Shown: positions 38,953 through 56,800 of the stretch, one piece after another
How positions within the stretch are numbered: the first letter of the stretch is position 1
Layout: every line of letters begins with the position of its first letter
Assembly (NCBI GenBank): GCA_012959275.1
Contig: DUDM01000058.1
Coordinates: 367-61,153, forward strand
Direction of reading: 5' to 3'
DNA: 60,787 bases
Source of the DNA: Candidatus Poseidoniales archaeon
GTDB taxonomy: Archaea; Thermoplasmatota; Poseidoniia; Poseidoniales; Poseidoniaceae
The notes under the pieces: generated by a model
Told to the model about the DNA's origin: nothing
The model's database searches: none
Seen by the model: only the letters and a program-made list of their open reading frames with translations
Position numbers and translations under genes: made by a program

Positions 38953-40134
38953 ATGGGCGGCGAAACTAATTGGATGAATGAGCGGTATGCAGAGTTGCAA
39001 AGTCAAAATATTCAGTGGGAACCACCAACCTTGGAAAGCGCAAGTACACCTCGTTGCGAAATGGATGGAAAGGCAATGATAATGCTCTCTGCAAATAATT
39101 ACCTGAATTTAACAACCCATCCAAAAGTGGTTGATGCAATGGTCCAAGCGACCTTGAAATTTGGGGCTGGTTCAGGTTCAGTGAGAGCAATTGCGGGAAC
39201 CATGGATATCCATTTAGAAGCAGAAAAAAAGGTTGCTGCATTCAAAGGTGTTGAGGCTTCATTGATTTATTCAGCAGGTTATACGGCTAACGTTGGCCTC
39301 ATTCCTACCTTGGTGAAGGGAAAGGATGATGTTATCATCTCAGACCAATTGAATCACGGTTCAATCATCGATGGAGTTCGATTAACTAAGGCCAGTCGTG
39401 CCGTATATCCTCATAATGACATGACAGGGCTCGAAGCATGTTTGAAAGAGCATAGTAATGCAGATAGAAAATTGATTATTACCGATGGAGTATTCAGTAT
39501 GGATGGAGACATTTCTCCACTCGATGAGATTAGTGAATTGGCAGAACAGCATGGTGCTATGGTCTATGTTGATGATTGTCATGGAGAAGGAGTTCTGGGT
39601 GAAACTGGTGCTGGCATTGTTGACCATTTCAAATTGCAAGGAAAGGTGGATTTTGAAATTGGGTCATTTTCCAAGGCACTTGGAGTACAAGGCGGCATAG
39701 TCGCAGGTAGCGATACAATGCGAACTCATGCCCTAAACCATAGCCGTTCATGGCTATTATCTGGAAGTCAACCTCCGGGGGTTGCTGCCGCACAAAAAGC
39801 CGCAGTAGAAGTATTGATGGAAGAGCCTCAACATCATCAACGGCTATGGCAAAACACTGAATATTTCCGGAAAGAAATGCATTCTCTCGGCTTTGACCTC
39901 GGAGTATCAACCACTCCGATAATCCCTGTCATGTGTGGAGAATCAGCGCGTGCTAAGCAGTTATCACATGGATTGCGTGATGAAGGAGTGATGGCAGGAG
40001 CCATTGTTTTCCCAATGGTTTCAAGAGATGGTGCAAGAGTTAGAAACCAATTATCCGCGGGGCTTTCAAAAGATGATATTGAAGAAGTCCTGAGAATCTA
40101 TGAATCGGTAGGAAAGCAAATCAACCTCATCTGA
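38953..40134 (+). CDS. Alpha-oxoamine synthase family: glycine C-acetyltransferase (Kbl) / BioF-like
   Basis: ANNYLNL, LNHGSIIDG, DGVFSMDGD, DDCHGEG, SFSKALG. Confidence 0.9.
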   Translation: MGGETNWMNERYAELQSQNIQWEPPTLESASTPRCEMDGKAMIMLSANNYLNLTTHPKVVDAMVQATLKFGAGSGSVRAIAGTMDIHLEAEKKVAAFKGVEASLIYSAGYTANVGLIPTLVKGKDDVIISDQLNHGSIIDGVRLTKASRAVYPHNDMTGLEACLKEHSNADRKLIITDGVFSMDGDISPLDEISELAEQHGAMVYVDDCHGEGVLGETGAGIVDHFKLQGKVDFEIGSFSKALGVQGGIVAGSDTMRTHALNHSRSWLLSGSQPPGVAAAQKAAVEVLMEEPQHHQRLWQNTEYFRKEMHSLGFDLGVSTTPIIPVMCGESARAKQLSHGLRDEGVMAGAIVFPMVSRDGARVRNQLSAGLSKDDIEEVLRIYESVGKQINLI

Positions 40135-40135
40135 T

Positions 40136-40723
40136 TTACTCTTCCTCAAACTTGGCAACAACCTCTTCAAGTTCTTCATCGCCTACCTGTGGCTCTTTCT
40201 CAAAGGGTGTTTCATTTCCATCGAAGGGATCGATATTAGCCTCTAACATCGATAATAATCTCCACCGGGGCGCCCAAGACATGTGTATGTAAATTGGCCC
40301 AGGAAGAAGTAAACATAACCAAGCACCTAATACCCAAAAGTCGACAATCTCGGTCATCTCTAATGTTAACCAAGAGAGGCCAATAAATGGCATTGGGTAG
40401 AGCAACTTACGCGGCGGTGCTAATGGATTCCTCTTGCTAATGCCAACAGATATCCGTGAAATCAGGCCCAATAGAGAAGATGAAGTAACCAAAATTAAAG
40501 CATGCATCAAGAATGTCTTCCACCAATCCATCAAATCCCATTCGGTAAATTGCCCCATAGGCAATAGTAGAGCTAAACTGATGAGTAATCCATAGAGAGC
40601 ACCAATGAATGCAGGATGAGAAAGGTCCAATGGCATTCTAATGAAGCGTTGAGACAAGCCTCCTCCAAGTACTAAATTTCGCTGCTCTCGCGGCAATTCA
40701 TTGATGGAGTCGCGCCAAGACAT
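40136..40723 (-). CDS. Hypothetical membrane protein (4 TM)
   Basis: Hydrophobic segments and acidic tail; ATG 40723. Confidence 0.7.
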   Translation of the reverse strand: MSWRDSINELPREQRNLVLGGGLSQRFIRMPLDLSHPAFIGALYGLLISLALLLPMGQFTEWDLMDWWKTFLMHALILVTSSSLLGLISRISVGISKRNPLAPPRKLLYPMPFIGLSWLTLEMTEIVDFWVLGAWLCLLLPGPIYIHMSWAPRWRLLSMLEANIDPFDGNETPFEKEPQVGDEELEEVVAKFEEE

Positions 40724-40759
40724 AGTGAAATCTAAGCCTGTGGATTTCAAGTATAGATA

Positions 40760-41425
40760 TCAACCTTCGCCGTTGGTTGAGTCATCTGTCTCCATCTTGG
40801 CATTGCGTAGCAAGGCGCCAAACTCAATTTCATTTTGACCTGGTGTTGTATCCAACCAATTACGTTCTAGTAGACCTGAATCATCTTCTTCTCTAATTCG
40901 GGCAGATTCAAAATCATCTCCACTGCCATTTTGCATATTTCTCAAAGCAATCGCTTCCTTCAGAAAAAAGAGGTGCAAATCAATTTGATTTTGCTTTGCT
41001 GATTGAAATAACCAAAGTCCAAAGTCTGTTCGTCCTTGGTCTTCGAGAGTTATTGTCCATTCCCTGCTCAATTGTCTTTTTACCACTCTCAAATTCACCT
41101 CTCCAGCATCTTTCCATCCTCGTAAATGATGCAGCATGACAATTGAATCACTATCTTCTTCACCTATCCATGGATGCGCATTGTTTACACAAATAGGAGT
41201 CTCTCTAATTGCAGCAATTCGTTTAGAGAAAAAGGCTGTAATAGCAAACAAAAAAGGCAGAATGATAATGCTGAATATTCCATAATAAAACAATATTAGA
41301 ATAAAGATAATTAGCAAACCTGAAATAATAATCAACAAGGATTTAATCAATGGCTTGACCATCTCTGAAAAGCGCTCAGTCTGTCTAAATAGGATAAATC
41401 CTTCAGGTATTTCATCAAATTCCAT
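40760..41425 (-). CDS. Hypothetical membrane protein (2 TM)
   Basis: ORF overlaps the end of the upstream DUF309 gene. Confidence 0.7.
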   Translation of the reverse strand: MEFDEIPEGFILFRQTERFSEMVKPLIKSLLIIISGLLIIFILILFYYGIFSIIILPFLFAITAFFSKRIAAIRETPICVNNAHPWIGEEDSDSIVMLHHLRGWKDAGEVNLRVVKRQLSREWTITLEDQGRTDFGLWLFQSAKQNQIDLHLFFLKEAIALRNMQNGSGDDFESARIREEDDSGLLERNWLDTTPGQNEIEFGALLRNAKMETDDSTNGEG

Positions 41426-41837
41426 CAACTTTCAACTCCTCTGACAAATGTATCTGAACGAGATTGCAATTTAGATTCCAGTCGGCATTATTTGCAGCGA
41501 TAAAATAGGATTCTATTTTGGCCAATAAATGACCCACATCTATACCCCATAAATAAGTGAATTTCAAGTTCCCTGGCCGGCCCATTTTTTCACATAATTT
41601 TGACCACATATTTGAAACTCCACGTGGATTCTCTTTTTGATACTGATAGAGAAGGGCAGCACATTGAATCAAACCTTGAAGTGCCTTATATTGTGGTTCT
41701 GGAAAATCAACTTTTAGCCGCTTCCACAAATCTTCCCACTCTTCATGGGCTTGCCAATATCTGCCATTGTTGAACTCTGAAATACCCACCATTAACAGAG
41801 CCATTTCGACATCATTCAGAGGCAAAGGGGTGGTCAT
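41415..41837 (-). CDS. DUF309 family protein
   Basis: FNNGRYWQAHEEWEDLW...QGLIQCAA. Confidence 0.88.
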   Translation of the reverse strand: MTTPLPLNDVEMALLMVGISEFNNGRYWQAHEEWEDLWKRLKVDFPEPQYKALQGLIQCAALLYQYQKENPRGVSNMWSKLCEKMGRPGNLKFTYLWGIDVGHLLAKIESYFIAANNADWNLNCNLVQIHLSEELKVDGI

Positions 41838-41964
41838 CTAATGCTCTTGAGGATGGGCATCCCGCATAGAGATTAGGGGTTGTTTTTCCGCCTCCACGTA
41901 GTGGAGGGGTGGCAGACATTCAAATGATGGGAAAGAAGCGGTCCTAACCTAAGGCGGTGCAAAA

Positions 41965-44013
41965 ATGGTTGAACTACCGAGCGGGAGTATCGAAGAAACT
42001 CGTCGCGGAGGACCAGATGTACTACAGGTGATGGTCCAAGATATCGTTTCATCTTCAGCCGATGGCTACATCCGAAGTGAGCGCAGACCGGAATCGGGTT
42101 TACCCCGAATTGGATATCTTGTATTTCGAGAAGGGCAACCAGCGATGGCCTTACACGAAGGCGAAATCACACGCTTAGGATTGGATGCATTGATGGAATT
42201 AGAAGAGGATGCGATGAGTATTGAAGCCTTATTGACTTTGCACCAAGGAATTGATACTCGAACTATAATCGAATTACATTCAGAGGCAATCCTACATCTC
42301 GATAGAATTGAAGAAAGCAATCCTGATTCAACAAATGACACTCTCGCCGGAGAATGGTGGAATGAAGAAAAAATCCAAAGTTTGTCTTGGAGGAAAGCAA
42401 CCGACTTGCCTGACTTGATTCCTTCAATGCAGGCTCCTGAATTTATTCGGCGCATTGGAGAAGCGAGGATTGGGGGGCATTCTTCTGATGAGACTCTAAT
42501 GGGGGGGCATCTGCACTTAATCGATTGTCAAGAAATAAGTTTGGTTATGGAATTAGCGGGTGAACTAAACCGGCGAGGAAGGCCACTCATTTCAATTTCC
42601 AGATTACGTGTCGAAAAGCAATTGGAATTTTATCAAGAAGAAGGTAATACTTGTTTTTGGTTAGTAGAAAGGCCAGAAGATGCAGAGCATATCGGACCTT
42701 CTCTTGAAGGACTATTGAGACTCATCGAAGGCTGGCTCGAGGAGCACCGTTCCGCCGTCATCCTGTTCGATGGATTTGAATTCTTATCAGGAACCCACGG
42801 TGATAGCAGGACAATCGGTTTCTTGAGGCGCTTAGCAGACTTGGTCAGGGATAGTGACGACATCATGTTAATGCCAGTCACCCTCGATTCATGGGAGGAA
42901 ATAATTCAGAATCAATTATTGAGAGCAACCGACCCATTGTCAACCGAACTAATCGAGGAATGGTTGATTGACCCTGATGTTCTCGATGACCATCCTTTCA
43001 TGGAATTGGTATTGGATGATTCAGAAGCAGCAGCAGTTGAGTTTGCATTAAATCAAAAACTTGGCGTTGATGAAGAGGTTCCAATTCCAGAAGGTGAATC
43101 CCCTGTAATTGGAACGAGCAATGATACCTCGCTCGATGAATTAATGAAAGGGTGGGCAAAAGAATCGACGGTTCAAGAAGACGGAGTCTCAACAACTTCC
43201 AGCGCTGTAGAATGGACGCCTAGTTTCCATTCTGGAGCGACCGGTGAAGAAATTGTAGCAACCGAAGAGCATATCGAAGAGCAAGTTGAAGAAGAAGAGA
43301 TAGTGCAAATTGTCGATAAATCTATTCAGCCAAGACCAGCAGTGAAAAGAAAGAGGCGCGTAAAGAAATCGATTCCCAAAACAAATATCAGTCCTCAATC
43401 AATCCTCAAAGCAGTTGCAGCAAAAGAGGTTAGTATCGCTGAAAGCATTCCTGAAATGAATAGAATGTTAACAGATGAACTACGAGATGCATCTTGCAAT
43501 GCTACTGAAAAAGAATTAGAATTACCTGAAATTGAAAAGTCTGCTAGGGCTTTTCAAAAAGCCTTGGAAGCAGGAAGTGAACATGCAGGAACAAGGATTG
43601 ATTCAAGCAAGATTCCCGAATTAGTTGATGCTCAAAAAATAAAGACCCATGTAGATGAATGGAATGAAGCTGCAGAACAAAATAGGGCTAAGAATAATGC
43701 AGAATGGCCCCCTTATACTGATCTAGATGATGCCGTCTCCCAAAAATTGCAAGCAGCAACTGAGGCTGCAATCAATCCCCCTCATCTCGATGATAGCCGT
43801 GATCGGAAAACTATTGGCCCGATGAAAGCCAGACCGGGGTCAGAATTAAAAAACAAAATAAACACCAGCAAGGACCTCCAAGAAAGGCGGCAAAGAGCTA
43901 GTGACCCTGCGACGATTGAGAGAAGAGTAAGGGAAAAAGAAATGCAAGCCTATCGAGAATTTCAGATGGAAGGAAAGATATCCCGTGAAAATCTACCAGA
44001 GGTTGAGGACTAA
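41965..44013 (+). CDS. Multidomain protein: N-terminal DUF2226/PATAN-like domain, DUF835 (inactive KaiC-like ATPase), long charged tail
   Basis: GYIR...GYLVFREGQP; LISISR...CFWL...HIGPS.LE.L...AVILFDGFEFL...FLRRLADLV; no Walker A. Confidence 0.7.
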   Translation: MVELPSGSIEETRRGGPDVLQVMVQDIVSSSADGYIRSERRPESGLPRIGYLVFREGQPAMALHEGEITRLGLDALMELEEDAMSIEALLTLHQGIDTRTIIELHSEAILHLDRIEESNPDSTNDTLAGEWWNEEKIQSLSWRKATDLPDLIPSMQAPEFIRRIGEARIGGHSSDETLMGGHLHLIDCQEISLVMELAGELNRRGRPLISISRLRVEKQLEFYQEEGNTCFWLVERPEDAEHIGPSLEGLLRLIEGWLEEHRSAVILFDGFEFLSGTHGDSRTIGFLRRLADLVRDSDDIMLMPVTLDSWEEIIQNQLLRATDPLSTELIEEWLIDPDVLDDHPFMELVLDDSEAAAVEFALNQKLGVDEEVPIPEGESPVIGTSNDTSLDELMKGWAKESTVQEDGVSTTSSAVEWTPSFHSGATGEEIVATEEHIEEQVEEEEIVQIVDKSIQPRPAVKRKRRVKKSIPKTNISPQSILKAVAAKEVSIAESIPEMNRMLTDELRDASCNATEKELELPEIEKSARAFQKALEAGSEHAGTRIDSSKIPELVDAQKIKTHVDEWNEAAEQNRAKNNAEWPPYTDLDDAVSQKLQAATEAAINPPHLDDSRDRKTIGPMKARPGSELKNKINTSKDLQERRQRASDPATIERRVREKEMQAYREFQMEGKISRENLPEVED

Positions 44014-45929
44014 TGGGTAGTAGTAGTTTATCGGCGGCTGTTGACAAAGCAGTTAATGCACTTGGAGAGGCAAAATATCTACTTCTTTCAGGTGATGAGA
44101 AAACAAAAACGAAAGGAAGGCGGGGCAGTTTATTGGATATCTCATCTCCTGCTGCCCGCAATACTTCATCGATTATTTCAGAAAGAGTGCTTGGTCCCAA
44201 AACGGATGTCGATTGGAAAACAATAGATTTGATGCCTGACATGAGAGCATCTGCTGACCGAGAATTAAGCAATATAGTCAGTGAAAGGTTTGCTGCTATG
44301 AGATCAAGGATGGAATGGTTGGAAACTCCGAGTGGAGAAATACCTTCAAGAAGCGGCGATTCTGATACCGCCCTTGGATTCACAGAAGATGGTGAACCGA
44401 TTTGGAGAGAGGTCGTAGGTGAACACCGAAAACGGCTAATGGCATTGGAACCATCAAGCGTTGCTCACAATATTAAAACCATACAACCACAGGAAATAAT
44501 TGGCCCTGATTGGCCATCTCAAATCCCCAGCCATTCACCATATGATTTCGCAGGATTCCATGTCTGCCCAGAAAATTTGAGAGCAGCAAGAGCAGTTGAT
44601 ACCATTCTTGATGAGCCATGTAGCAGATGGAATCCCTTACTATTAGAAGGAGGGCATGGGACAGGGAAAAGCCACCTTCTTTGGGCCTGTGGTCAGCAAA
44701 TGAAACTACAAGACCCACTTCGTCAAGTCAGAATTTTGAATTCCAGTCAATGCTCGGACAAAAGGCCTGAAGGGTGGGAGAGAACTTTGACTTCGACCTC
44801 AATGCTGTTGGTAGATGATTTACATGAAATAAGCGATGCCAATCACCAAAACCTTGGAGAAATAATTGATTGGGCAATCAATGCTGGTTGTCAAGTGGTG
44901 ATAACCTCTAATGGATTTGAGCATCGCAAATTACCGCCATCTCGACTAAAGCATGTCTTAGTTGATTCAAGGTGGGTTTCGTTGAGGAGACCCCGAAAAG
45001 CCAGTCGAATGACATACCTGAGAGAAAGGTCTGCAACCAGACGTTTGCTCATCGATGATTCTGCACTTGCAGTTGTGGAGGAGTGCAGCCCAGGTGACTG
45101 GAGGTCTCTTTCACAATCGATTGAAGTTCTTGCCGAGAGTATTGAAAGAGGGGCTGCATTTGATTCAAGCGAAGATATTAGAAATATTTTCTCCACCATT
45201 CCTAATGAGCCTGAGGAACTCCATAGCGATGCTCAATTAGATTCTGCTTCACTTGCAACAGAGTTGATAGAAGAGGCCATTAAATCAGCAATTCATCTAC
45301 CATTGGAACCAGATATTACATTGGTTTCATCGATGCAAGAAATAGTTGATGATGATTATCAAGTTCCTGATTTAATGCCTGCAAATTCTGAAACTGCGGT
45401 CAAGAACCTCCTTGACAGACACCTCGGCGAAGAATTGCGGAGAATGTCAGAACCGGTAGGAGATGCTATCGGTGTACATGAAAGAGAGCGTCATTTTATT
45501 GATGAAAGACGTACTCCAAGTTCTGATGAAATGATTAAAGTCAAAAACGACCTATCCACTCTTGATTTGCAAATTGATGCAAAATTTGATCTGGCCTATC
45601 ACAAAGTCGCTGATGAAAAATCACAACTAATTACATTGCTAGATGAATTGCAATATCTATCTGAATCAATGATTAATGCAGGTGCAAGAGACCTTATTCG
45701 GATGGTTGACAGATTATATAACATCGAAATGCAATTGCATCAACTCGACCCAGAACGTTGGCCTGTTCCATCAATGCCGAAAAATAAGAGACGTGTGAGG
45801 CGGAAGATGCCTGAACCTGAAGTCGAGGAAACATTCAGCAGTCCACAGGCTGGAAACCGTTCTGTTGCAACGATTAGAACTTTGAGAATATTGCAACCAA
45901 CTACTGAACAGATTTCGGAGGAAGAGTAA
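44013..45929 (+). CDS. DnaA/Hda-family AAA+ ATPase lacking the DnaA domain IV HTH
   Basis: YDFAGFHVCPENLRA, WNPLLLEGGHGTGKSHLL, LLVDDLH, QVVITSN, RMTYLRER, GDWRSL follow DnaA domain III in order. Confidence 0.82.
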   Translation: MGSSSLSAAVDKAVNALGEAKYLLLSGDEKTKTKGRRGSLLDISSPAARNTSSIISERVLGPKTDVDWKTIDLMPDMRASADRELSNIVSERFAAMRSRMEWLETPSGEIPSRSGDSDTALGFTEDGEPIWREVVGEHRKRLMALEPSSVAHNIKTIQPQEIIGPDWPSQIPSHSPYDFAGFHVCPENLRAARAVDTILDEPCSRWNPLLLEGGHGTGKSHLLWACGQQMKLQDPLRQVRILNSSQCSDKRPEGWERTLTSTSMLLVDDLHEISDANHQNLGEIIDWAINAGCQVVITSNGFEHRKLPPSRLKHVLVDSRWVSLRRPRKASRMTYLRERSATRRLLIDDSALAVVEECSPGDWRSLSQSIEVLAESIERGAAFDSSEDIRNIFSTIPNEPEELHSDAQLDSASLATELIEEAIKSAIHLPLEPDITLVSSMQEIVDDDYQVPDLMPANSETAVKNLLDRHLGEELRRMSEPVGDAIGVHERERHFIDERRTPSSDEMIKVKNDLSTLDLQIDAKFDLAYHKVADEKSQLITLLDELQYLSESMINAGARDLIRMVDRLYNIEMQLHQLDPERWPVPSMPKNKRRVRRKMPEPEVEETFSSPQAGNRSVATIRTLRILQPTTEQISEEE

Positions 45930-46406
45930 TTGTCACGCAGTGGCTGGCGAAAAGAAAATGCATGGTGGCAGGAAGGGCTTCAATTCACATGTATTGAAGG
46001 CTGTGGAAAATGCTGCAATGAACCGGGTGGTATCGTTAATCTCTCTGTTGAAGATGCAAAAAAGTTGGCTCAATATTTTGAGATGACAACGAGTGATTGG
46101 TTAGAACGGGATTGTGTTCGTAAATTGGATGGCAAATGGGTCTTAAGAAGTAAAAAATCAGATGGTATCTGCATTTATCTCGATACAGAGATGAGTTGCA
46201 CAGTTTATTCGGCTAAACCAAATCAGTGTTCGGCATTCCCTTGGTGGGGTGAAAATTTGCGCAGCGAAAGAACTTGGAAAAAGACTGCTCGCACTTGCCC
46301 GGGTTTAGAAATTCACGAAGCGCCCATTATTCCTGGAGAAATTATTAGCAAGTGGGTAGAAGCAGATAGGCACTCGTCCAAAGGCTTTCGACACTTGCCA
46401 GAATAA
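45930..46406 (+). CDS. YkgJ-family (CxxCC) Cys-cluster Zn/Fe-binding protein
   Basis: FTCIEGCGKCC, CIYL, CTVYSAKPNQCSAFPWW, CPG; TTG start directly after the previous stop. Confidence 0.9.
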   Translation: MSRSGWRKENAWWQEGLQFTCIEGCGKCCNEPGGIVNLSVEDAKKLAQYFEMTTSDWLERDCVRKLDGKWVLRSKKSDGICIYLDTEMSCTVYSAKPNQCSAFPWWGENLRSERTWKKTARTCPGLEIHEAPIIPGEIISKWVEADRHSSKGFRHLPE

Positions 46407-46542
46407 AGTGACTTTCCTGCTGCGCGGGTAGGATACACTTGGTGCATTTGCCACACCTTCTTGAAATTAAAAGCATCAAACTCAACAAATATGCACCGTG
46501 CTTATACCAAAGAGGCAAGTCGGCGGGTGCGAGGCAAGGAAT

Positions 46543-47712
46543 ATGTCAGATGATAGAGATTCTAAGAAGGTGCTTTTGGAACTCACGGAAGAACATCTTG
46601 ACATCGGTATGCGGGGCATTCCAGTTGGTACCTGCAGAACAAGTTCGGTCAGTCCTGACGGAGGTGTTCATTACGTTGGCTACCCGATTGCAGCGGTAGC
46701 AGATAAGGACCCTGAAGATATTGTCTTCCTATTGTTCAACAAAAGGTTGCCTACTGAGGAAGAATCCATCGCATTTCGAAAAGATTTGTTTTCGAGAGCA
46801 ACAATTCCTAATGGTTTAGTAAATATGCTTGAGAACCTTCCCCGTGATGGCCATCCGATGGATTGGTTATCAATCGGAATTCATGCTCTTGGCATGTTGG
46901 GTAAAACCGAAGATTGGGAGGAGGATGCACTCAACCTTATTGCCCAAATGCCTTACTTGATGGCTGCTATTTTCAGAATCCGAGGAGGAAGGAGTGGAAG
47001 TTTGCCAGATGTTGATCCAAATGTCGGAATGGTTGAGGCATTTGTTGCAATGCTTGAACCTGAACCTGAGCAAGTCGCAAACATGGTCAAAGTTTTACGA
47101 ACATTTTTGGTGTTACACATGGACCATGGAGGAGGGAATCTCTCAACCTTTACCGGTAAAGCAGTCGCCAGCGGTCATGCTGACCTTTATGCATCAATGG
47201 CAGCAGCAATGAATGCTCTTTCAGGACCACTTCATGGTCGAGCCAATCAATCATGCCTTGAATTCGTTCAGAGAATCGGCACAAATGATCCAAAAAAGGT
47301 TGAAGAATTCGTCAGGACTGAATTAGCCGCTAAAAGACCAATATATGGTTTCGGCCATGCTGTCTTAAGGGTCGAAGACCCAAGGGCAACCTTCCAATTT
47401 TTATTAGGTGAGAAAATTTGCCCAGATGATGAATACTTCAGTATCATCCGAACTCTGCGAGAAGTCGCTCCAAGAGTGTTGAGGGAGAATCCGAGAATTA
47501 GTAACCCGAATGCAAATGTCGATATCGCATCTGGTACATTGTTAAACCATGTCGGCTTCAAAAAACCATCATACTATACCACCTTTTTCGGATGGGCAAG
47601 AGTGGTTGGAATTGGGGCTCAAATTGTCGATGAACGAACCATCGCACGCAATGGGAAGGGTATTCCAATCTATCGACCAAAGTACATTGCAATAGAGCAA
47701 GAATTAAAGTGA
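46543..47712 (+). CDS. gltA: Citrate synthase (or 2-methylcitrate synthase)
   Basis: HMDHGGGNLST, GPLHGRAN, GFGHAVLR, DPR, NANVD. Confidence 0.9.
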   Translation: MSDDRDSKKVLLELTEEHLDIGMRGIPVGTCRTSSVSPDGGVHYVGYPIAAVADKDPEDIVFLLFNKRLPTEEESIAFRKDLFSRATIPNGLVNMLENLPRDGHPMDWLSIGIHALGMLGKTEDWEEDALNLIAQMPYLMAAIFRIRGGRSGSLPDVDPNVGMVEAFVAMLEPEPEQVANMVKVLRTFLVLHMDHGGGNLSTFTGKAVASGHADLYASMAAAMNALSGPLHGRANQSCLEFVQRIGTNDPKKVEEFVRTELAAKRPIYGFGHAVLRVEDPRATFQFLLGEKICPDDEYFSIIRTLREVAPRVLRENPRISNPNANVDIASGTLLNHVGFKKPSYYTTFFGWARVVGIGAQIVDERTIARNGKGIPIYRPKYIAIEQELK

Positions 47713-47741
47713 TTATTTGTATTTCTGTGAAATGCTTGTAT

Positions 47742-49502
47742 TCAGGCTTCTTCCGCCCCACCACGCTTAATGGCATCTTCTTGCTTTGCTACTCTTGTTC
47801 CTTCTTCAACATCCACCCAGTGCATCATAGCAGTACCAACTAGAATCAAAAGAAGAATCGAAAATACAGCGACTCTATCATCCATAGTTGTGGAAACTAG
47901 GAAGTAGACCCATGGGCCAATTACACTCGCTGCTTTGCCAATGAAACCGAAGAATCCAAAAAATTCTGTGGCTCTAGTTTCGGGAACCATCATCCCGAAT
48001 ATTGAGCGAGCCAAGGCTTGACTTCCACCCATCACAATTCCCACTCCCAGTCCAAGGAAAAGCCATTGGCCATCAATTCCAAGACTCAAAGGCTTCCAAA
48101 CATTTTCTCTCAATGTTTCAGGCCAAGAATCCATTGTACCTTCACCAATTTGACTTGGGTGTTCTTTGCCATAAACTCGCTTTGGCCCAACTCCATCAGA
48201 AGCAGGCCCATCGGCGATGAAAAGCGTAAATTCAGTATCTTCGATAGCCGTAGATAAAAGTAGGATTTCGGAGGCGTTAATGCTAACTCCATTAGCAAGA
48301 CCCCATGTAGAATTCCATTTCCTATGAACTCCATCATCTTCCAAGTCTAACTCATGACCATCTATCACTGAAATCTCGTAAGTTTGGCCACTTTCGACCC
48401 AATTTGCACGATAGATGAAATCCTCTTCTGCATCGGGCTCTAATGCACAAAAACCTGTAGCCATAGAAATAATCAAACACCAACCTACCAAACTGACTAT
48501 CAGGGCTTTCTTGGTAGTGGTTTTTTCTGCCAAACGACTGAAGGCCATGGCGCTTGGGGCCGCAACAAATTGAATCATCAATATAACTACCATATTGGTA
48601 ATCATTGAAACACCGAGCACATCCCCTCCAAATGCTCCAGCGATTGCAAGCACTGTTTGAATTCCATCATTGAACATCAAGAAGGCGATTAAGTAAATCA
48701 CCAACATCTTGAACTTGGTCAATTCTCTAAATGTCTTCTTCAATTCCTTGAAAGCCATCTTAGTGATAGCAGCGGCTCTCATGCCCGTAATTGCATCTTT
48801 AATGACTGGTTCAGGAACATGCCTGAAGGTATAAACAGAAAATCCCCACCACCATATTCCAACTGATGCTAAAGATAACCTAATCATCAAATCAGAATTA
48901 TCAGTTGCCATCAGCAGGCCAAGATGAACCGCTAGTAATAGACCGCCACCAATGTAGCCATAGGCGAAACCGCGACTGCTGATATCATCCATCAATTCTT
49001 CATCTCCCATATAGGGGAGTAAAGCATTGTAAAACACATTGGCACCAGCAAAACCGGTATTCGCAACGAAGAAACAGAGTAGCAAAAATAACCAGTCATA
49101 ACCTCCAAAAAGGGCCGAAAAGAACATCATTACCGTTGCGCCTGCACCAACAATTGTATAGACTTTCAATAATTTCATCTTTATTTCCATTCGGTCTGCG
49201 ATAATCCCCAAAAGAGGAGATGATAATGCTACCAATAGGGTGGAAAAACCAACTACGAATGCCCACATCCCACTAGCAGAAAAGTTAGCAAAGAAAGAAT
49301 CTGGATTGTTTTTTAGAAATGTATTAATCAATGCCATAGCATAGATAGGAAGGATTGCAACTGTTATGCTCGTTGAAAAGGCAGAATTAGCCCAATCATA
49401 GACACACCAACCCTTGATTTTTTGCTTCTGTTCATCGGGGAGCCCCTTCATTTTCTGCTTAATGCTGACTGCGGTAGTTGTCTCAGTCATGCTGCTCTCC
49501 AA
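47742..49502 (-). CDS. MFS transporter, UMF1/Atg22-like family, with a large inserted loop
   Basis: WCVYDWANSAF, FYNALLP, GYIGGG, NDGIQT, GGSQALARS, EFFGFF. Start could be 49490. Confidence 0.9.
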   Translation of the reverse strand: MESSMTETTTAVSIKQKMKGLPDEQKQKIKGWCVYDWANSAFSTSITVAILPIYAMALINTFLKNNPDSFFANFSASGMWAFVVGFSTLLVALSSPLLGIIADRMEIKMKLLKVYTIVGAGATVMMFFSALFGGYDWLFLLLCFFVANTGFAGANVFYNALLPYMGDEELMDDISSRGFAYGYIGGGLLLAVHLGLLMATDNSDLMIRLSLASVGIWWWGFSVYTFRHVPEPVIKDAITGMRAAAITKMAFKELKKTFRELTKFKMLVIYLIAFLMFNDGIQTVLAIAGAFGGDVLGVSMITNMVVILMIQFVAAPSAMAFSRLAEKTTTKKALIVSLVGWCLIISMATGFCALEPDAEEDFIYRANWVESGQTYEISVIDGHELDLEDDGVHRKWNSTWGLANGVSINASEILLLSTAIEDTEFTLFIADGPASDGVGPKRVYGKEHPSQIGEGTMDSWPETLRENVWKPLSLGIDGQWLFLGLGVGIVMGGSQALARSIFGMMVPETRATEFFGFFGFIGKAASVIGPWVYFLVSTTMDDRVAVFSILLLILVGTAMMHWVDVEEGTRVAKQEDAIKRGGAEEA

Positions 49503-51486: not shown

Positions 51487-52374
51487 TCAATCTCCTAAGG
51501 AAGGTAGGCTGGGGAGGCTGGGTAGAGAAGGAAGTGATGGAAGTGAAGCAACAACAACTTCTTCCTCCTCTTCAACTTCTGGAAGTTTTGGCAAAGCAGG
51601 AGGGGTTGGAGGCAATGGGATTGGCTCATCAAGAATTGCTTCTGGGATAACACCGGGTTTTGAGCCGGATGAAAACACATCCATTCCGCCACTCACCATT
51701 CTCACTACTGGCTCTTGTACATCCTCAGGTTCATTGAGTTCAATGGACTCTTCAATTAACTCGCCAATATCGGATTCATTATTCTCGGTTTTAGGAAGGG
51801 GAACAGGAGTGGTTAAAGGAACATATTCTGTTGGCAATAAAACTTCTCCTTCGATCTTAGGGTTTTCAGCAACTACTCTTGCCGCCTCTTCTCCGAACTC
51901 ACCCTTCGATAAAGCACCCAATGCACCGCTGATTGCATCTTCACTCTGAGCTGCCATCTCATCAACTATTCCAGCCACAATCGACGCAGTAGTTGGATTG
52001 ATTGTGGTTGAAGTGGACGATATTGAAATTGCTTGGGATTCCATCGCTAAGCGCATGCTCTCTTCGTCTCCAGCATCTGGAACATGCATTTGAGGCCGAA
52101 ATCTTTGGCCCCACCATCCGGCCATAAAACCACAAGCAGAGAGAAAAAGTAAAGCCCAATCTTGAACACTGTAGGTGTGTTTTGAGCCCCAGATTACTTG
52201 GCCGCTGGCATCACCAAATAAGTCAATTAAGAAAGGGAGGCCATAGAATTTCATTCCCCAATGGCCTGGCCAAGGGGCGAAATGGATGTTTACAATTGTG
52301 AAAAACAATAACATGCCGCCAATCCAATGACCAACCATCCCAACAAGGGGATTGCGTCGCTCTCCCTCTATCAC
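51487..52374 (-). CDS. Hypothetical membrane protein (2 TM) with acidic, Pro-rich tail ending (LPS)4
   Basis: 295-aa ORF; TTGATG box 31 nt upstream of the GTG start. Confidence 0.7.
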   Translation of the reverse strand: MIEGERRNPLVGMVGHWIGGMLLFFTIVNIHFAPWPGHWGMKFYGLPFLIDLFGDASGQVIWGSKHTYSVQDWALLFLSACGFMAGWWGQRFRPQMHVPDAGDEESMRLAMESQAISISSTSTTINPTTASIVAGIVDEMAAQSEDAISGALGALSKGEFGEEAARVVAENPKIEGEVLLPTEYVPLTTPVPLPKTENNESDIGELIEESIELNEPEDVQEPVVRMVSGGMDVFSSGSKPGVIPEAILDEPIPLPPTPPALPKLPEVEEEEEVVVASLPSLPSLPSLPSLPSLGD

Positions 52375-53714: not shown

Positions 53715-53822
53715 TCTGAAGAATTGGGTATTGTGTGTTGTCCTCGCCCCCTAAGGGGGCGTGGCTTTGGATGCCTACATTGATAGGGGTTCGGTGACCC
53801 CCGTAAAGTCAGAGGCTTGCCC

Positions 53823-56800
53823 ATGCGTACCAGAATTTTGATTGGACTGTTGTTTTTGACAGCAGCTTTTGCCCCACTTGCGACTAACCAAATCCCACTT
53901 GGAATTGATGAAGTTTTCACTTCAGAAACAAATGAGGACCCCCGAGAACTCACTAAAATTAATGTATTACCAGGAACACGAACTGTGAACAATGCAGGTG
54001 GCCGTGCCCCTTGCCCAACTATCCAAACCGATGCTGGAATGACCGGTGATGCTGGAAATGAGAGTAATACATCTAGACCTCTTGGACAAAACCCAACAAC
54101 CTCGAAGACCGGCTGTATGGATGCAACTGATAGTTCAGATTGGTATTCATTCTCCTATACCCAAGGCAAGGACATCGATATCGAATTAGTTGTTCCAGCA
54201 GGTGCTGATTTCGACTTATACTTGTACGATGATGCTAATCAATATCTAGCGGACTCTTCAGAATATAACGACCCACTTGAGAAAGTAACCAGTGTTGGCT
54301 CACAAATTTCAGGGGTTGCAGGAACATACTATATCGCCCTCTACATGTATAGTGGTGATGGAGGATATACAGTTCGAACTTGGACAAATAATTCCCCTCC
54401 TGCACCTGATTTACTGACTACTGCAATTACCTCCCCAAGCCGTGGTAATGCAAGCGACGTAGTGGATATCGCATACACAATTGAAAACAAAGGAAATGAT
54501 AACAGCAGTAATTTCAATGTAACTTTCATTCTATCAGAGGATGAAATATATGACTGGTCAGATACTCTTCTATCTCATGGAGAGAATCACACAAATCTTG
54601 GTGAAAATACCAGCCTAAACAATACTGCTACCATTACAATCCCTTCCACTCTTGCGAATGGCTCCTACCATTGGTTAGTTTGGCCGGATGCTTATGGGAC
54701 GATTACAGAAAAGAATGAATCCAATAATATGATGGCAAGCCCAGTGAAGATGACGGTTGGGGAATCCTGCGAAGATTTCCACCCAAGTGGACAAGATGAT
54801 GCAAGTTCAGGCCAAGATGCAGCAACAAATTGGAGTGATGTTACAACTGCCACCGGAGATAATTACACAGGAATGATTTCTGGGTGTATGGATGGAAATG
54901 ATGGAAATGACAACTACCGCTTCGATGTACCCATCAATCACGATTTGGAAGTTGTTTTGACTAGTCAAGGAGATGACAGAGGATACATAGATATCCTTTC
55001 CTCAAATGGTTCATATGTTGATTACGACTACTCTTGGAATACCTCCACTAAGAGTGCAGCAACCTCGGGTGGAGACTATGACGGTGATGGAGGCACATTC
55101 TTCGTCAATATCAGCCATTCAGAAGGAGCAGGGAACTATACTCTCGATGTATGGACCAACTATAGTGCTCCTGCCCCGAACCTATTCGTCGAGGATGTTA
55201 GCGGACCTCTTACATCAAACCCAGGGGATTCAATAACCATCGACTTTGATATCAGCAACGATGGAAAGGTTGACTTGAGCAATTCAGCACTTGTCAGTGC
55301 GTGGCTATCAGTAAGCACCGATTGGTCAGAATACGACCATGAAATTGGTAATACTACTATCTCATCAGTAGTTGTCAATGGTACAACAAATGGTCAAATC
55401 AATGGCCTTGTCCCTCAGGATATTATTGAAGGAAATTACAGCATCATCGTCATTGTCGATGGTGATGAAATGATTGATGAAGTAAATGATGATGATAACA
55501 CTGGAATAGCCGACGATCAAGTGCAAATCGGTTCAATCCCTTCAGGATGTTCAAGCCAAAATGATGCCCTATCTGGCGGTGATGCTGGTAATGATGCTAA
55601 TAATGCATATGACCTTGGCGCAGATGCCTCAGTTGAAGTCATCGGCTGTCTCGATAAAAATAGTGATGCTTCAGATTTCTACAAGGTAACTATGAGTTCA
55701 GGGATGGACATCTCTGCAATCCTAATTGTTGCACCAAGTTCAGACTTCGACTTGGAGTTGAATAATGCTCAAGGTCAATTGATTGGCCAAAGTTGGGGAG
55801 CGGGCAGCAATGATGAAGATGTTGCGAGTGATGATGGGGCTGGCGGGGTATTCTACATTGAAGTAATAGCCTGGTCTGATGCAGGTGAATACCGATTGAT
55901 AATCAACGATGCCAAAAATCAAGTCACACCAGTATTCACCTGTGGCCAACAGATGGACCTTGGATTGAATGGAGATGCCAGCGATGCTAGCAGTAACCCA
56001 ACTGCCTTAGGAGATAATCCAATGCAAATTGGAATGGGCTGCCTAGATGGCAACGATGTTGCTGATGCATATGGCTTCTCTTTGACAGAGCAACAGAATA
56101 TTGAAATCACCTTTTCACAAGATGGGGAATCAAACTTTATGGTCGCTCTTTACGAAGGAAATAATTTCATCGAAAGTTGGGATAACACTACTGCCCTGGT
56201 AGAATGGGAGACTCTTGGTACCGAGCGTGAAGGTACCGATTCATCCTACCGCATAGTCATCGGAGCCAATGGTGGAGTGGGCTACTACAACCTTAGCATC
56301 ACCACAACTGATGCTGCTGCTCCTGATTATGTAGCGGATGCAGTAAACTGTCCTATCGACCTCATCAGTGGAGAAGAGGGATACTTTGGCTGGGAGTTCT
56401 CCAATATCAATGGAGTATCACAAGGCCCAGTTTCATTCAGTATTTCTCTTCTTGATGAAAATAGTCAAGTAATCGCAGTTCTTTACAATAGTAGTGCAAT
56501 TTTGGATTCGAGTAATGCAGAGATGGAAAGCGGAAGTTCATCCTATGGATTCCCAGAAGCGATGGAAAGCGGGTCATATTCCTGCCAACTTGAAGTTGAC
56601 CAAGAAATGCTAATCGTTGAAGATAATGAAAGCAATAACATCATCATAGGAAATTCATTCAACATCACCAATTATTGGGACCTTTGGGCAAATGACATAG
56701 ACCAAGATGGATACAATACCACCGATACTGGCGATGGAATAGTTGATGCTTGTCCTGAATCATTTGGAGAATCAACGGGAGACGGATATGGTTGCCCAGA

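What the first reader, a model, noticed from the sequence alone, without database searches (positions are those of the whole stretch)
41965..46406. Archaeal operon pairing a DnaA/Hda-type AAA+ ATPase with a DUF835 (inactive KaiC-like) protein and a YkgJ metal-cluster protein
Seen: three abutting genes (TAATG overlap at 44013; TAA-TTG junction at 45929/45930). The middle protein follows bacterial DnaA domain III motif by motif, not Orc1/Cdc6, and carries unrelated N- and C-terminal extensions. The first protein has a DUF835-like core, a DUF2226/PATAN-like N-terminal domain and a charged tail of about 330 aa. Established: archaea initiate replication with Orc1/Cdc6, and DUF835 is regarded as an inactivated KaiC-like domain proposed to act in archaeal signalling. 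Inference: this may be an uncharacterised nucleotide-switch module (signalling, cell cycle or positioning) built from a repurposed DnaA fold. It is the best candidate for a new system in this window.
Basis: partly seen in the sequence, partly recalled or inferred. Interest (0 to 1): 0.85.

Follow-up and report, generated by a model that had tools for sequence, protein, structure and literature searches.

The report
Split DnaA-like / KaiC-like archaeal module
Two coupled genes of a marine archaeon encode a bacterial-DnaA-type ATPase domain and an inactive KaiC-like domain that are fused into one protein in related archaea, so they form a conserved, undescribed non-replicative module of unknown function.

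Summary
The three abutting genes are real: A 682 aa, B 638 aa, C 158 aa. The domain calls hold: DUF835, DnaA-type AAA+ and YkgJ.

B is closest to bacterial DnaA domain III by profile and by fold, not to Orc1/Cdc6. It has no DnaA domain I or IV. Its arginine finger is absent in all 23 orthologues compared, and the Walker A Lys or Walker B acids are lost in 4-5 of 23.

A and B are neighbours or lie at contig ends in 32 of 41 related genomes.

The new evidence is domain fusion. In other Thermoplasmatota, A's N-domain, a DnaA AAA+ domain and DUF835 lie in one polypeptide. Among 20 loci I fetched there were 6 fusions and 3 adjacent pairs. Of 30 database relatives of a fused DUF835, 25 carry both Pfam domains.

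A/B is therefore a split, permuted version of a wider DnaA-iKaiC module with an eroded catalytic site. My literature searches did not find it described.

It is not the replication initiator. Orc1/Cdc6 is present, the locus lies 306 kb from orc1 in a closed relative, and one clade lost it cleanly together with an upstream membrane-protein gene.

Function is inferred only. The pair is most likely a scaffold or adaptor for RecA/KaiC-type or type IV filament ATPases.

The parts
40760..41428 (-). c4: a 222-aa membrane protein of no known family. It has a hydrophobic hairpin at about residues 22-74 and invariant HPW and AR.RE...LLEREW motifs. It is a candidate fourth component, transcribed divergently from A.
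   Evidence: Found in 31 of 41 relatives, absent from the same 9 genomes as A/B/C; the one further miss, G002, has A at a contig end. It is missing together with A, B and C at the syntenic locus in 5 of 5 genomes examined. Pfam gave no meaningful hit among 19 members. The hydropathy scan is and the alignment.
41965..44013 (+). Gene A (682 aa): N-domain, inactive KaiC-like DUF835 core and a disordered charged tail.
41965..42318 (+). A residues 1-118: a compact alpha/beta N-domain, possibly DUF2226-like.
   Evidence: pLDDT is about 90. The same domain sits at the N-terminus of DnaA-AAA+ proteins in other Thermoplasmatota. That includes two proteins not used to build the profile: L046 at E 2.8e-22 and L045 at E 4.2e-11. 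DUF2226 was hit by 2 of 21 members.
42490..43011 (+). A residues 176-349: DUF835, a RecA/KaiC-fold core without a P-loop.
   Evidence: Pfam PF05763, 37.4 bits. VIA-align best matches: FlaH/ArlH 4yds (Z 13.8, rmsd 3.6, 151 aligned), PH0284 (13.4), SSO2452 (13.0), KaiC (12.4). Foldseek gave KaiC 8db3 at E 5e-4. The sequence has no GxxxxGK[ST] between strand 183-187 and helix 192-203.
43012..44013 (+). A residues 350-682: a low-confidence, acidic tail with a basic patch (residues 456-472).
   Evidence: The tail is poorly conserved, apart from a P-R...R..RR patch, in the alignment of 19 orthologues.
44013..45929 (+). Gene B (638 aa): an N-extension, a DnaA-domain-III-type AAA+ domain and a helical, coiled-coil C-terminal region.
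44523..45212 (+). B residues 171-400: AAA+ domain of the DnaA type, base plus lid.
   Evidence: Family profile against PDB sequences: DnaA 8btg 4.1e-24, 2z4r 1.3e-23, 1l8q 1.1e-16; Hda 3.5e-4; DnaC 3.9e-3. Foldseek: 8bv3 DnaA domain III, TM 0.82 (target-normalised), rmsd 2.7 over 232 columns.
45522..45746 (+). B residues 504-578: a predicted long helical hairpin (coiled coil). It is preceded by a conserved acidic DDY.PPDL.P motif at about residues 445-456 and followed by a basic patch at 589-597.
   Evidence: AF2 secondary structure and pLDDT of 77-89. Motif conservation is shown. No Pfam family matched.
45930..46406 (+). Gene C (158 aa): a YkgJ-type CxxCxxCC metal-cluster protein.
   Evidence: Pfam PF03692, 38.2 bits. 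Cys at positions 21, 25, 28, 29, 62, 81, 90, 100 and 123. Same 32 of 41 phyletic pattern as A and B. It is on the same strand and abuts B in f1 relatives, and is on the opposite strand in f2/f3 relatives.

Best explanation
A and B are two chains of one conserved, non-replicative module. The module is built from three domains: a small N-domain (possibly DUF2226-like), a DnaA-domain-III-type AAA+ domain, and an inactivated KaiC-like DUF835 domain. In other Thermoplasmatota these domains are joined in one polypeptide in the order N - AAA+ - DUF835. In this Poseidoniaceae lineage the module is split and permuted: A carries N + DUF835 + a disordered tail, and B carries the AAA+ domain with new N- and C-terminal extensions.

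Shown here:
- homology of each domain;
- the fusions in other lineages;
- order-wide, translationally coupled adjacency of A and B;
- purifying selection on all three genes;
- loss of the arginine finger in B.

Inferred:
- The two proteins form a complex.
- B has lost the trans-acting Arg and, in some lineages, the Walker residues. It therefore acts here as an ATP-binding or nucleotide-free scaffold rather than a cycling ATPase.
- A's iKaiC domain docks onto an active RecA/KaiC-superfamily or type IV filament ATPase.
- The membrane protein c4 and the YkgJ protein are lineage-specific accessories.

It does not initiate replication.
For: 1. Domain identity.

2. Fusion. I fetched 20 of about 70 non-Poseidoniales places listed.
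- 6 ORFs carry Bac_DnaA and DUF835 together, both above Pfam cut-offs: L053 611 aa, L049 743, L057 977, L052 867, L044 1223, L050 484.
- 3 more loci have the two domains as genes next to or one gene apart from each other: L047, L054, L051.
- A's N-domain heads 6 DnaA-AAA+ proteins.
- 25 of 30 database relatives of the L053 DUF835 part carry both PF00308 and PF05763. NCBI names them only 'DnaA ATPase domain-containing protein' or 'DnaA/Hda family protein' from Thermoplasmatota or Thermoplasmata archaea.

3. Conservation. A, B and C are found in the same 32 of 41 relatives. In the phylum sample, full-length B is found in f1 42/42 and f3 8/21. A's stop and B's start overlap by exactly 4 nt in 14 of 19 loci (L013-L031) and by 1 nt in the window. 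dN/dS is 0.06-0.21.

4. Erosion of B's ATPase site: Arg finger 0/23, Walker A Lys 19/23, Walker B DD 18/23, sensor-II Arg 12/23. By contrast 19 of 20 other Thermoplasmatota DnaA-like domains keep all motifs. Poseidoniales B sits on a long stem (1.14, support 98) in the domain tree.

5. Not replication.
- Orc1/Cdc6 scores above cut-off in 5 of 5 genomes tested, including 3 that lack the module.
- In the closed genome G019 the module lies at 1.519-1.524 Mb, and the orc1 genes at 1.830 and 0.701 Mb.
- B gave no DnaA_C or DnaA_N hit.

6. Context of relatives.
- Active KaiC/Rad51-like ATPase genes lie beside or inside 3 of the 9 DnaA-DUF835 loci (L052, L057, L051).
- A Ras-family GTPase gene lies beside L053.
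- In L048 a DnaA-AAA+ domain is fused to a T2SSE pilus ATPase inside a pilin/T2SSF locus.
Against: - No experiment or prediction here shows that A binds B.
- The domain tree does not resolve where B came from. Its grouping with the fused protein L050 has only 80-84% SH-aLRT support, and both are long, degenerate branches.
- The whole neighbourhood (aminotransferase, c7, c4, DUF309, A, B, C, citrate synthase, ATG22-like) is syntenic across the order. Adjacency alone is therefore weak evidence.
- The window's own B keeps GKS, DD and the sensor-II Arg. ATP binding, and even slow hydrolysis, cannot be excluded in this genome.
- The proposed output, a RecA/KaiC-type or type IV filament ATPase, rests on contexts in distant relatives.
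- Neither c4 nor YkgJ accompanies the fused forms.
Confidence: 0.55

Rival explanations
1. Active nucleotide switch. B binds and hydrolyses ATP like DnaA or Hda, and the ATP/ADP state toggles A and downstream partners.
For: The window's B has Walker A GKS, Walker B DD and the sensor-II Arg. Its fold superposes on DnaA domain III at TM 0.82. The fused relatives keep every DnaA motif (19 of 20), so the ancestral module probably was a switch.
Against: The Box VII arginine-finger position holds no Arg in 0 of 23 orthologues. The Walker A Lys is replaced by R, C or G in 4 of 23. Walker B is degenerate in 5 of 23. The sensor-II Arg is present in only 12 of 23. A function shared by the whole family therefore cannot depend on hydrolysis.
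Confidence: 0.2
2. Specific regulator or scaffold of a type IV filament machine, a Tad-like pilus or the archaellum. A's iKaiC domain would play an ArlH-like part, and B would play the part that the DnaA domain plays when fused to a pilus ATPase.
For: - The best structural match of A's core is FlaH/ArlH (Z 13.8).
- L048 is a DnaA-AAA+::T2SSE fusion inside a pilin/T2SSF locus.
- The nearest bacterial relatives include tandem-DnaA proteins with MshEN domains.
- A ~415-aa T2SSE ATPase was found in 30 of 32 module-bearing genomes and in 0 of 9 genomes without the module. G016 adds a truncated match, and G005 (78% complete) has none. In G000 this ATPase sits in a T2SSF-T2SSF-T2SSE operon.
- Archaellin was found in 26 of 32 genomes with the module and 1 of 9 without.
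Against: - The five module-less genomes tested form one clade (support 100). All these co-absences may therefore reflect a single genome-streamlining event.
- Three genomes that are 93-98% complete have the module but no archaellin (G026, G028, G034). One genome, G035, has archaellin and an ArlI-like ATPase but no module.
- The module is not encoded near the pilus or archaellum loci in G000.
Confidence: 0.15
3. Replication or cell-cycle factor: a DnaA- or Hda-like regulator of origin firing, Orc1/Cdc6 or MCM loading.
For: The AAA+ domain belongs to the initiator clade and is nearest to DnaA. Both tails carry a basic patch that could bind DNA.
Against: - B has no DnaA domain IV or I.
- The Arg finger is lost.
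- Orc1/Cdc6 is present in genomes with and without the module.
- The module lies 306 kb from the nearest orc1 gene in the closed genome G019.
- The module is dispensable in a whole clade.
- DnaC/IstB matches are weak, at E 3e-3 to 4e-3.
Confidence: 0.06
4. Neighbours by inherited synteny only. A, B and C have unrelated functions, and the DnaA-like gene is a decaying bacterial import.
For: The region is syntenic across the order whatever the functions of its genes. B's motifs are eroded and its branch is long.
Against: - The same domains are fused in other lineages.
- The A/B junction overlaps by 4 nt in 14 of 19 loci.
- dN/dS is 0.11 for B.
- c4, A, B and C were excised together while the flanking genes stayed in place.
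Confidence: 0.04

Closest known systems
Bacterial DnaA domain III, with Hda as the shorter relative
   Same: The AAA+ base and lid share sequence and fold with DnaA. Profile E-values against DnaA structures are 4e-24 to 1e-16. Foldseek TM is 0.82 to B. subtilis DnaA domain III. Also conserved are the N-P-L / G.GK[ST]HL Walker A context, Walker B, and the first Box VII Arg (18 of 23).
   Different: B has no domain I and no DnaA-box-binding domain IV. TIGR00362 scores 61.7 bits against a cut-off of 343.9, and the Hda model 39.1 against 194.8. The arginine finger is absent in 0/23, and the DnaA-type sensor-1 Asp is kept in 1/23. B has about 170 aa of extension at the N-terminus and about 240 aa at the C-terminus. 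The host is archaeal and has its own Orc1/Cdc6.
DUF835 (PF05763), listed as an inactivated KaiC domain ('iKaiC') of archaeal signalling proteins, and the archaellum protein ArlH/FlaH
   Same: A passes the Pfam cut-off. It has the RecA/KaiC fold, with FlaH and archaeal KaiC-like ATPases as best matches, and it has no P-loop. A table in Galperin et al. 2018 (PMC5847659, passage read) lists 'DUF835 (iKaiC)' as an output domain fused to REC in Methanomicrobia and Thermoplasmata.
   Different: Here the partner is not a receiver domain. It is a DnaA-type AAA+ domain plus a DUF2226-like N-domain. The searchable literature did not show that combination. ArlH is an active ATP-binding protein encoded in the archaellum operon. 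A is neither.
Fused 'DnaA ATPase domain-containing protein' / 'DnaA/Hda family protein' of Thermoplasmatota (database entries only, no study found)
   Same: They hold the same three domains: N-domain, Bac_DnaA and DUF835.
   Different: They are one chain in the order N-AAA+-DUF835, with all DnaA catalytic motifs intact in 5 of 6. Some have KaiC/Rad51-like ATPase or Ras-like GTPase genes next door. The window has two chains in the order [N-DUF835][AAA+], an eroded ATPase site, long tails, and its own neighbours, c4 and YkgJ.
YkgJ / CxxCxxCC family (PF03692)
   Same: C passes the cut-off and has the N-terminal Cys cluster.
   Different: No function is known for this context. The match to the flagellin lysine methylase FliB model is not significant (E 0.17).

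Membership tests
DnaA, bacterial replication initiator (TIGR00362; PF00308 + PF08299 + PF11638) | AAA+ domain III homologous to DnaA | tested here: met
   PF00308, 44.5 bits against 23. Family profile against DnaA structures, 4.1e-24. Foldseek TM 0.82.
DnaA, bacterial replication initiator | Whole-protein equivalog score | tested here: not met
   TIGR00362 scores 61.7 bits against a cut-off of 343.9.
DnaA, bacterial replication initiator | C-terminal DnaA-box-binding HTH (domain IV, PF08299) and N-terminal domain I (PF11638) | tested here: not met
   Neither family is listed for B at E<=1. A canonical DnaA from the same search, P0127, shows both. B's C-terminal region is predicted as long helices.
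DnaA, bacterial replication initiator | Box VII arginine finger and sensor-II Arg (residue roles recalled from the E. coli literature) | tested here: not met
   Arg at the finger column in 0 of 23 orthologues. Sensor-II Arg in 12 of 23. The 12 canonical DnaA rows and 19 of 20 other archaeal rows show the R..SRF-type Box VII.
Hda (TIGR03420) | Equivalog score and a single-domain protein of about 230 aa | tested here: not met
   39.1 bits against a cut-off of 194.8. The model has 226 positions and B has 638 aa.
Orc1/Cdc6 (TIGR02928) | Profile match | tested here: not met
   The family is not among B's NCBIfam hits at E<=1. No Orc1/Cdc6 chain appears at E<=0.01 in the PDB profile search. The genome's own Orc1 lies elsewhere, at G000:C34, scoring 419 bits.
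DnaC / IstB helicase loaders | Better profile match than to DnaA | tested here: not met
   IstB model E 0.0029, 17.3 bits against a cut-off of 200. DnaC chain E 3.9e-3, against DnaA at 4e-24.
DUF835 / inactivated KaiC (PF05763) | Pfam gathering score | tested here: met
   37.4 bits against 33.1, residues 193-313.
DUF835 / inactivated KaiC (PF05763) | RecA/KaiC fold without a Walker A P-loop | tested here: met
   FlaH Z 13.8, PH0284 13.4, KaiC 12.4. No GxxxxGK[ST] after the first core strand in A or in the consensus of 19 orthologues.
DUF2226 (PF09987) / PatA_N (PF14332) | Profile match of A residues 1-118 | tested here: inconclusive
   The window's N-domain gave no hit at E<=5. DUF2226 was hit by 2 of 21 members, best 4.4e-5. 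Atlas leads were 0.79 and 0.77, both under its trust mark. No PDB sequence match at E<=10.
YkgJ / CxxCxxCC (PF03692) | Pfam gathering score and Cys cluster | tested here: met
   38.2 bits against 23. Cys at 21, 25, 28 and 29, plus five more.
Fused N-domain-DnaA-DUF835 proteins of Thermoplasmatota (unnamed) | All three domains present | tested here: met
   A carries the N-domain and DUF835, and B carries the AAA+ domain.
Fused N-domain-DnaA-DUF835 proteins of Thermoplasmatota (unnamed) | One polypeptide, in the order N - AAA+ - DUF835 | tested here: not met
   There are two genes in the order [N-DUF835][AAA+] in the window and in all Poseidoniales loci read.
Known anti-phage defence systems (PADLOC) | Any model match | tested here: not met
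   No family at E<=0.01 for A, B, C or c4.

The most novel reading that the evidence does not exclude
The DnaA domain-III fold has a second, non-replicative role. In this reading it is an oligomerising ATP switch that partners with RecA/KaiC-superfamily and type IV filament ATPases. It would be widespread in Thermoplasmatota as N-domain-DnaA-iKaiC fusions and a DnaA::T2SSE fusion, and in bacteria as tandem-DnaA proteins with MshEN domains. The abundant marine Poseidoniales would keep a split, membrane-associated, catalytically silenced version that controls pilus or archaellum assembly or another surface machine.
Probability: 0.22. Interest if true: 0.8.

Novelty: new variant of a known kind. 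Interest (0 to 1): 0.6.

Why it matters
DnaA is the textbook bacterial replication initiator, and archaea are not supposed to use it. Here a DnaA-type ATPase domain turns out to be common in one archaeal phylum. It is found in 92 of 301 sampled Thermoplasmatota genomes and is repeatedly fused to an inactive KaiC-like domain.

That gives a concrete, testable partner for the DUF835/iKaiC domains that have been proposed as archaeal signalling parts. It also gives a natural series running from intact fused forms to a split, eroded form. Such a series can be used to ask what the ATPase cycle is for.

The hosts, Marine Group II archaea, are among the most abundant planktonic archaea and are uncultured. 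Conserved order-specific modules are therefore some of the few handles on their cell biology.

Tried and rejected
- Complex prediction of A(1-350) with B(1-600) gave no verdict: ipSAE 0.00 in two runs, controls not folded. It is evidence neither for nor against binding.
- Expression: no RNA holder was listed for window 40100-47800. Only DNA metagenome runs hold it, from hydrothermal-vent and marine samples.
- Phyletic co-variation as a functional argument. The archaellin, T2SSE, c4 and A/B/C patterns agree largely or wholly. However, the five module-less genomes I could place form one clade. I treat this as about one event and as weak evidence. The other four module-less genomes (G030, G032, G036, G038) were not placed.
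- Origin of B. The domain tree had 93 rows. Kept were 16 of 23 Poseidoniales B, all 20 other archaeal proteins, 14 of 55 two-domain proteins plus P0137, 12 of 18 canonical DnaA, 14 of 17 other single-domain proteins and one Orc1. It was run with quick IQ-TREE and left the deep branching unresolved, so no donor can be named.
- The N-extension of B shows only a loose, low-complexity match to the region before the AAA+ domain in the ~425-aa f19 proteins. Nothing was built on it.
- The fold of A's N-domain could not be tested.
- c4 has no Pfam family; there were only scattered single-member hits at E 0.011 or weaker.
- Defence-system reading: no PADLOC hits for the window's proteins.
- Neighbourhoods of the ~425-aa f19 DnaA-like genes hold housekeeping genes (UbiA, amino-acid kinase family, FMN dehydrogenase, RDD, TtuA-like, methyltransferases). 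They gave no functional hint.
- Literature. Searches were 'DnaA'+'Marine Group II'+'archaea' (one unrelated paper, passages read), 'DUF835'+'KaiC' and 'DUF835' (only PMC5847659, passage read), 'DUF2226' (none), 'Bac_DnaA'+'archaea' (listing only, unrelated titles) and 'DnaA-like'+'archaeal'+'KaiC' (none). The key paper on KaiC-like ATPases in archaea (Makarova, Galperin and Koonin 2017, mBio; cited in PMC6393860) is not held. It may describe DUF835 contexts that I could not see, and what I say of it is recalled. Supplements were not consulted.

Full report
**1. What is there**

The window carries three abutting plus-strand ORFs:
- A: 41965-44013, 682 aa.
- B: 44013-45929, 638 aa.
- C: 45930-46406, 158 aa, TTG start.

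A's TAA and B's ATG share one base. B's TAA is followed directly by C's TTG.

Pfam places DUF835 on A (residues 193-313, 37.4 bits, cut-off 33.1). It places Bac_DnaA on B (177-300, 44.5 bits, cut-off 23). It places the YkgJ-type CxxCxxCC domain on C (38.2 bits, cut-off 23).

The host is an archaeon of the Marine Group II lineage.
- Relatives of A at 68% identity are named 'Candidatus Poseidoniaceae archaeon'.
- The genome has archaellins and Orc1/Cdc6.
- One record holding a 93%-identical copy is titled 'Deltaproteobacteria bacterium'. Given everything else, this looks like a mislabel.

**2. Protein B**

NCBIfam ranks DnaA first (E 6.7e-17) and Hda second (5.5e-10). ZapE, IstB and RFC follow at E of about 1e-3 or weaker, and no Orc1/Cdc6 model appears.

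A profile of 23 orthologues (alignment A1) was searched against PDB sequences. It hit:
- five DnaA sequences, E 4.1e-24 to 1.1e-16;
- two Hda-type chains, about 4e-4;
- DnaC, 3.9e-3;
- one unrelated P-loop protein.

The AlphaFold model has a mean pLDDT of 67.7, with residues 170-395 mostly at 83-92. It superposes on B. subtilis DnaA domain III at TM 0.82 (target-normalised) and rmsd 2.7 A. T. maritima DnaA, A. aeolicus DnaA and Hda follow, and only then generic AAA+ proteins.

The domain is therefore of the DnaA type. B is still not a DnaA.
- The equivalog scores are far below cut-off: 61.7 against 343.9 for DnaA, and 39.1 against 194.8 for Hda.
- No domain I or domain IV is detected.
- The C-terminal 240 residues are predicted as helices with a long hairpin at 504-578.

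A motif census shows that the catalytic site is eroded across the family:

| Motif | Orthologues that keep it (of 23) |
|---|---|
| Walker A Lys | 19 (replaced by R, R, C, G in the other four) |
| Walker B DD | 18 |
| Box VII first Arg | 18 |
| Arginine-finger column | 0 |
| DnaA-type sensor-1 Asp | 1 |
| Sensor-II Arg | 12 |

The residue roles are recalled from work on E. coli DnaA. The columns come from the alignment.

The window's own B keeps GKS, DD and the sensor-II Arg, but not the finger.

**3. Protein A**

The model has two confident domains, residues 1-115 and 176-345, both at a pLDDT of about 90. The rest is largely disordered.

The core matches KaiC, Elp4/5/6, FlaH and RecA in Foldseek. 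With VIA-align the best matches are FlaH/ArlH (Z 13.8), PH0284 (13.4), SSO2452 (13.0) and KaiC (12.4). No P-loop follows the first core strand. This fits DUF835 as an inactivated KaiC, the label used in PMC5847659.

The identity of the N-domain is unsettled.
- DUF2226 is hit by 2 of 21 members, best E 4.4e-5, and not by the window's copy.
- The Atlas gives weak leads to DUF2226 and PatA_N.

**4. Conservation**

A, B and C each match in the same 32 of 41 related genomes: f1 24/24, f2 2/2, f3 5/14, plus the window's own genome. Each is missing from the same nine genomes, which are 91-97% complete and 1.3-1.6 Mb in size.

In a phylum-wide sample of 301 genomes, full-length B occurs in f1 42/42 and f3 8/21. 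It does not occur in the sister family of the same class (0/8).

At ORF level, A precedes B on the same strand in every locus long enough to show both. The junction overlaps by exactly 4 nt in 14 of 19 loci. C abuts B on the same strand in f1 and lies next door on the opposite strand in f2/f3.

dN/dS against the two closest relatives is 0.11 (B), 0.06 (C) and 0.16-0.21 (A, last 490 codons). The more distant pairs are saturated.

One caveat applies. The whole neighbourhood is syntenic across the order, so adjacency alone says little.

**5. The decisive evidence: fusions**

The same profile found DnaA-type AAA+ domains in 41 further Thermoplasmatota genomes, at about 70 places. I fetched 20 of these places.

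HMMs of A and B and Pfam show the following.
- Six ORFs carry Bac_DnaA and DUF835 in one chain. Their lengths are 611, 743, 977, 867, 1223 and 484 aa.
- Four of the six begin with A's N-domain.
- Three further loci have the two domains as separate genes, adjacent or one gene apart.
- The N-domain profile also finds two long DnaA-AAA+ proteins that were not used to build it, at E 2.8e-22 and 4.2e-11.

A database search with the DUF835 part of one fusion returned 30 proteins. Of these, 25 carry both Pfam domains, and they are named only generically, from Thermoplasmatota or Thermoplasmata archaea. One representative in the 1.8-billion-protein library, P0137, is 2x Bac_DnaA + DUF835.

So A and B hold the parts of a wider three-domain module, rearranged as [N-DUF835][AAA+]. 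In those relatives every DnaA motif is intact in 19 of 20 domains. The erosion is therefore specific to Poseidoniales, which also sit on a long stem in the domain tree (1.14, support 98).

The tree does not resolve B's origin. Its nearest neighbours are L050, a degenerate fusion, and a few unnamed proteins, joined with only 80-84% support.

**6. Not replication**

- Orc1/Cdc6 is present above cut-off in 5 of 5 genomes tested, three of them without the module.
- In the closed genome G019 the module lies 306 kb from the nearer orc1 gene.
- At the syntenic site of five module-less genomes, the aminotransferase and citrate synthase genes are only 0.1-1.3 kb apart.
- In all five of those genomes c4, A, B and C are gone. 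The membrane-protein gene c7 remains in four and DUF309 in two.

**7. A fourth gene**

The divergent upstream gene c4 (40760-41428, minus strand) encodes a 222-aa protein with a hydrophobic hairpin and invariant HPW and AR.RE...LLEREW motifs. It has no Pfam family. It shares the module's phyletic pattern at 31 of 41 genomes and was lost with the module.

The five losses fall in one clade (support 100). This is about one event and should be weighted accordingly.

**8. Hints to function, all indirect**

- Active KaiC/Rad51-like ATPase genes lie beside or within three of the nine DnaA-DUF835 loci. A Ras-family GTPase gene lies beside a fourth.
- L048 fuses the DnaA domain to a T2SSE ATPase inside a pilin/T2SSF locus.
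- The next-best relatives of B in the large library are two-domain DnaA proteins of about 650 aa. Some of them carry MshEN domains.
- In the 41 relatives, a ~415-aa T2SSE ATPase of a Tad-like operon is found in 30 of 32 genomes with the module, plus one truncated match, and in 0 of 9 without it.
- Archaellin is found in 26 of 32 genomes with the module and 1 of 9 without it. There are three high-quality exceptions.
- Both tails carry a similar proline-flanked basic patch.

**9. Reading**

Most likely (confidence 0.55), A and B form a complex that descends from an ATP-dependent N-domain-DnaA-iKaiC signalling ATPase. In Poseidoniales this complex has become a largely non-catalytic scaffold or adaptor, possibly held at the membrane through c4. 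Its target would be a RecA/KaiC-type or type IV filament ATPase.

The rivals are an active switch (0.2), a dedicated pilus or archaellum regulator (0.15), a replication role (0.06) and unrelated neighbours (0.04).

My searches found no description of the DnaA-DUF835 pairing. The most relevant paper could not be read.

Noticed in passing
G000:C50:12503-13405 (+), outside the window; locus L066:7504-8406: A second, 300-aa DUF835 protein in the same genome (Pfam E 2.3e-17), with an acidic linker and a helical C-terminal part. It is divergent from a 598-aa protein with a zinc ribbon and several EF-hands. Weak matches to similar ORFs of about 290-330 aa appear in many relatives and in none of the nine module-less genomes.
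   Followed up: partly
L039-L043 and L058 (family f19 Thermoplasmatota): Stand-alone DnaA-domain-III proteins of about 415-440 aa. Bac_DnaA scores E 4.8e-60 and all catalytic motifs are intact. They lack domain IV and sit in a conserved block of housekeeping genes. They were found in 23 of 24 sampled f19 genomes. Their role is unknown.
   Followed up: partly
L048:6856-9297 (+): An 813-aa fusion of a DnaA-type AAA+ domain to a T2SSE pilus or archaellum-type ATPase. It lies between a 957-aa archaeal pilin-like protein, a DUF7289 protein and two T2SSF genes. A second ORF of the same length class is listed for G156 but was not read.
   Followed up: partly
Proteins P0059-P0125 (library representatives, origin unnamed): A large set of proteins of about 600-690 aa, each with two tandem Bac_DnaA domains. 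These are the nearest non-archaeal relatives of B (E 1e-55 to 1e-35). Two longer ones (1990 and 1248 aa) carry MshEN domains. Similar proteins are named 'DnaA/Hda family protein' from Gemmatimonadales.
   Followed up: partly
window 43330-43380 (A residues 456-472) and 45777-45803 (B residues 589-597): Both tails carry a similar proline-flanked basic patch, rich in K and R around an R-R-V core. A comparable patch recurs in orthologues of both proteins. It could be a shared binding motif for DNA, membrane or a common partner.
   Followed up: no
window 41415-41837 (-): A DUF309 gene lies between c4 and A. It is kept at the syntenic site in two of the five module-less genomes (G039, G037) and is missing in the other three. 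It is therefore probably not part of the module.
   Followed up: partly
L067 (record JAOMAZ010000023.1): A contig titled 'Deltaproteobacteria bacterium isolate AH-558-G13' holds a 93%-identical copy of archaeal gene B, and NCBI names its A homologue under the same organism. The taxonomic label is probably wrong, or the single-cell assembly is mixed.
   Followed up: no
G001:C17:7194-9104 and G005:C90:4791-7008: In two relatives of the same genus, B is interrupted. G001 has one in-frame TGA. In G005 the match is split into two pieces, query residues 4-479 and 479-633. This could be sequencing error, a frameshift or incipient decay; I did not examine it.
   Followed up: no
window 53817-57500 (+): A 1227-aa protein with a signal-like N-terminus, several repeated acidic domains of about 110 aa, D-rich calcium-binding-like repeats and a C-terminal hydrophobic anchor. 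It is probably a surface protein (translation seen).
   Followed up: no
window 51487-52374 (-): A 295-aa membrane protein that ends in a run of LPS repeats before its C-terminus (translation seen).
   Followed up: no
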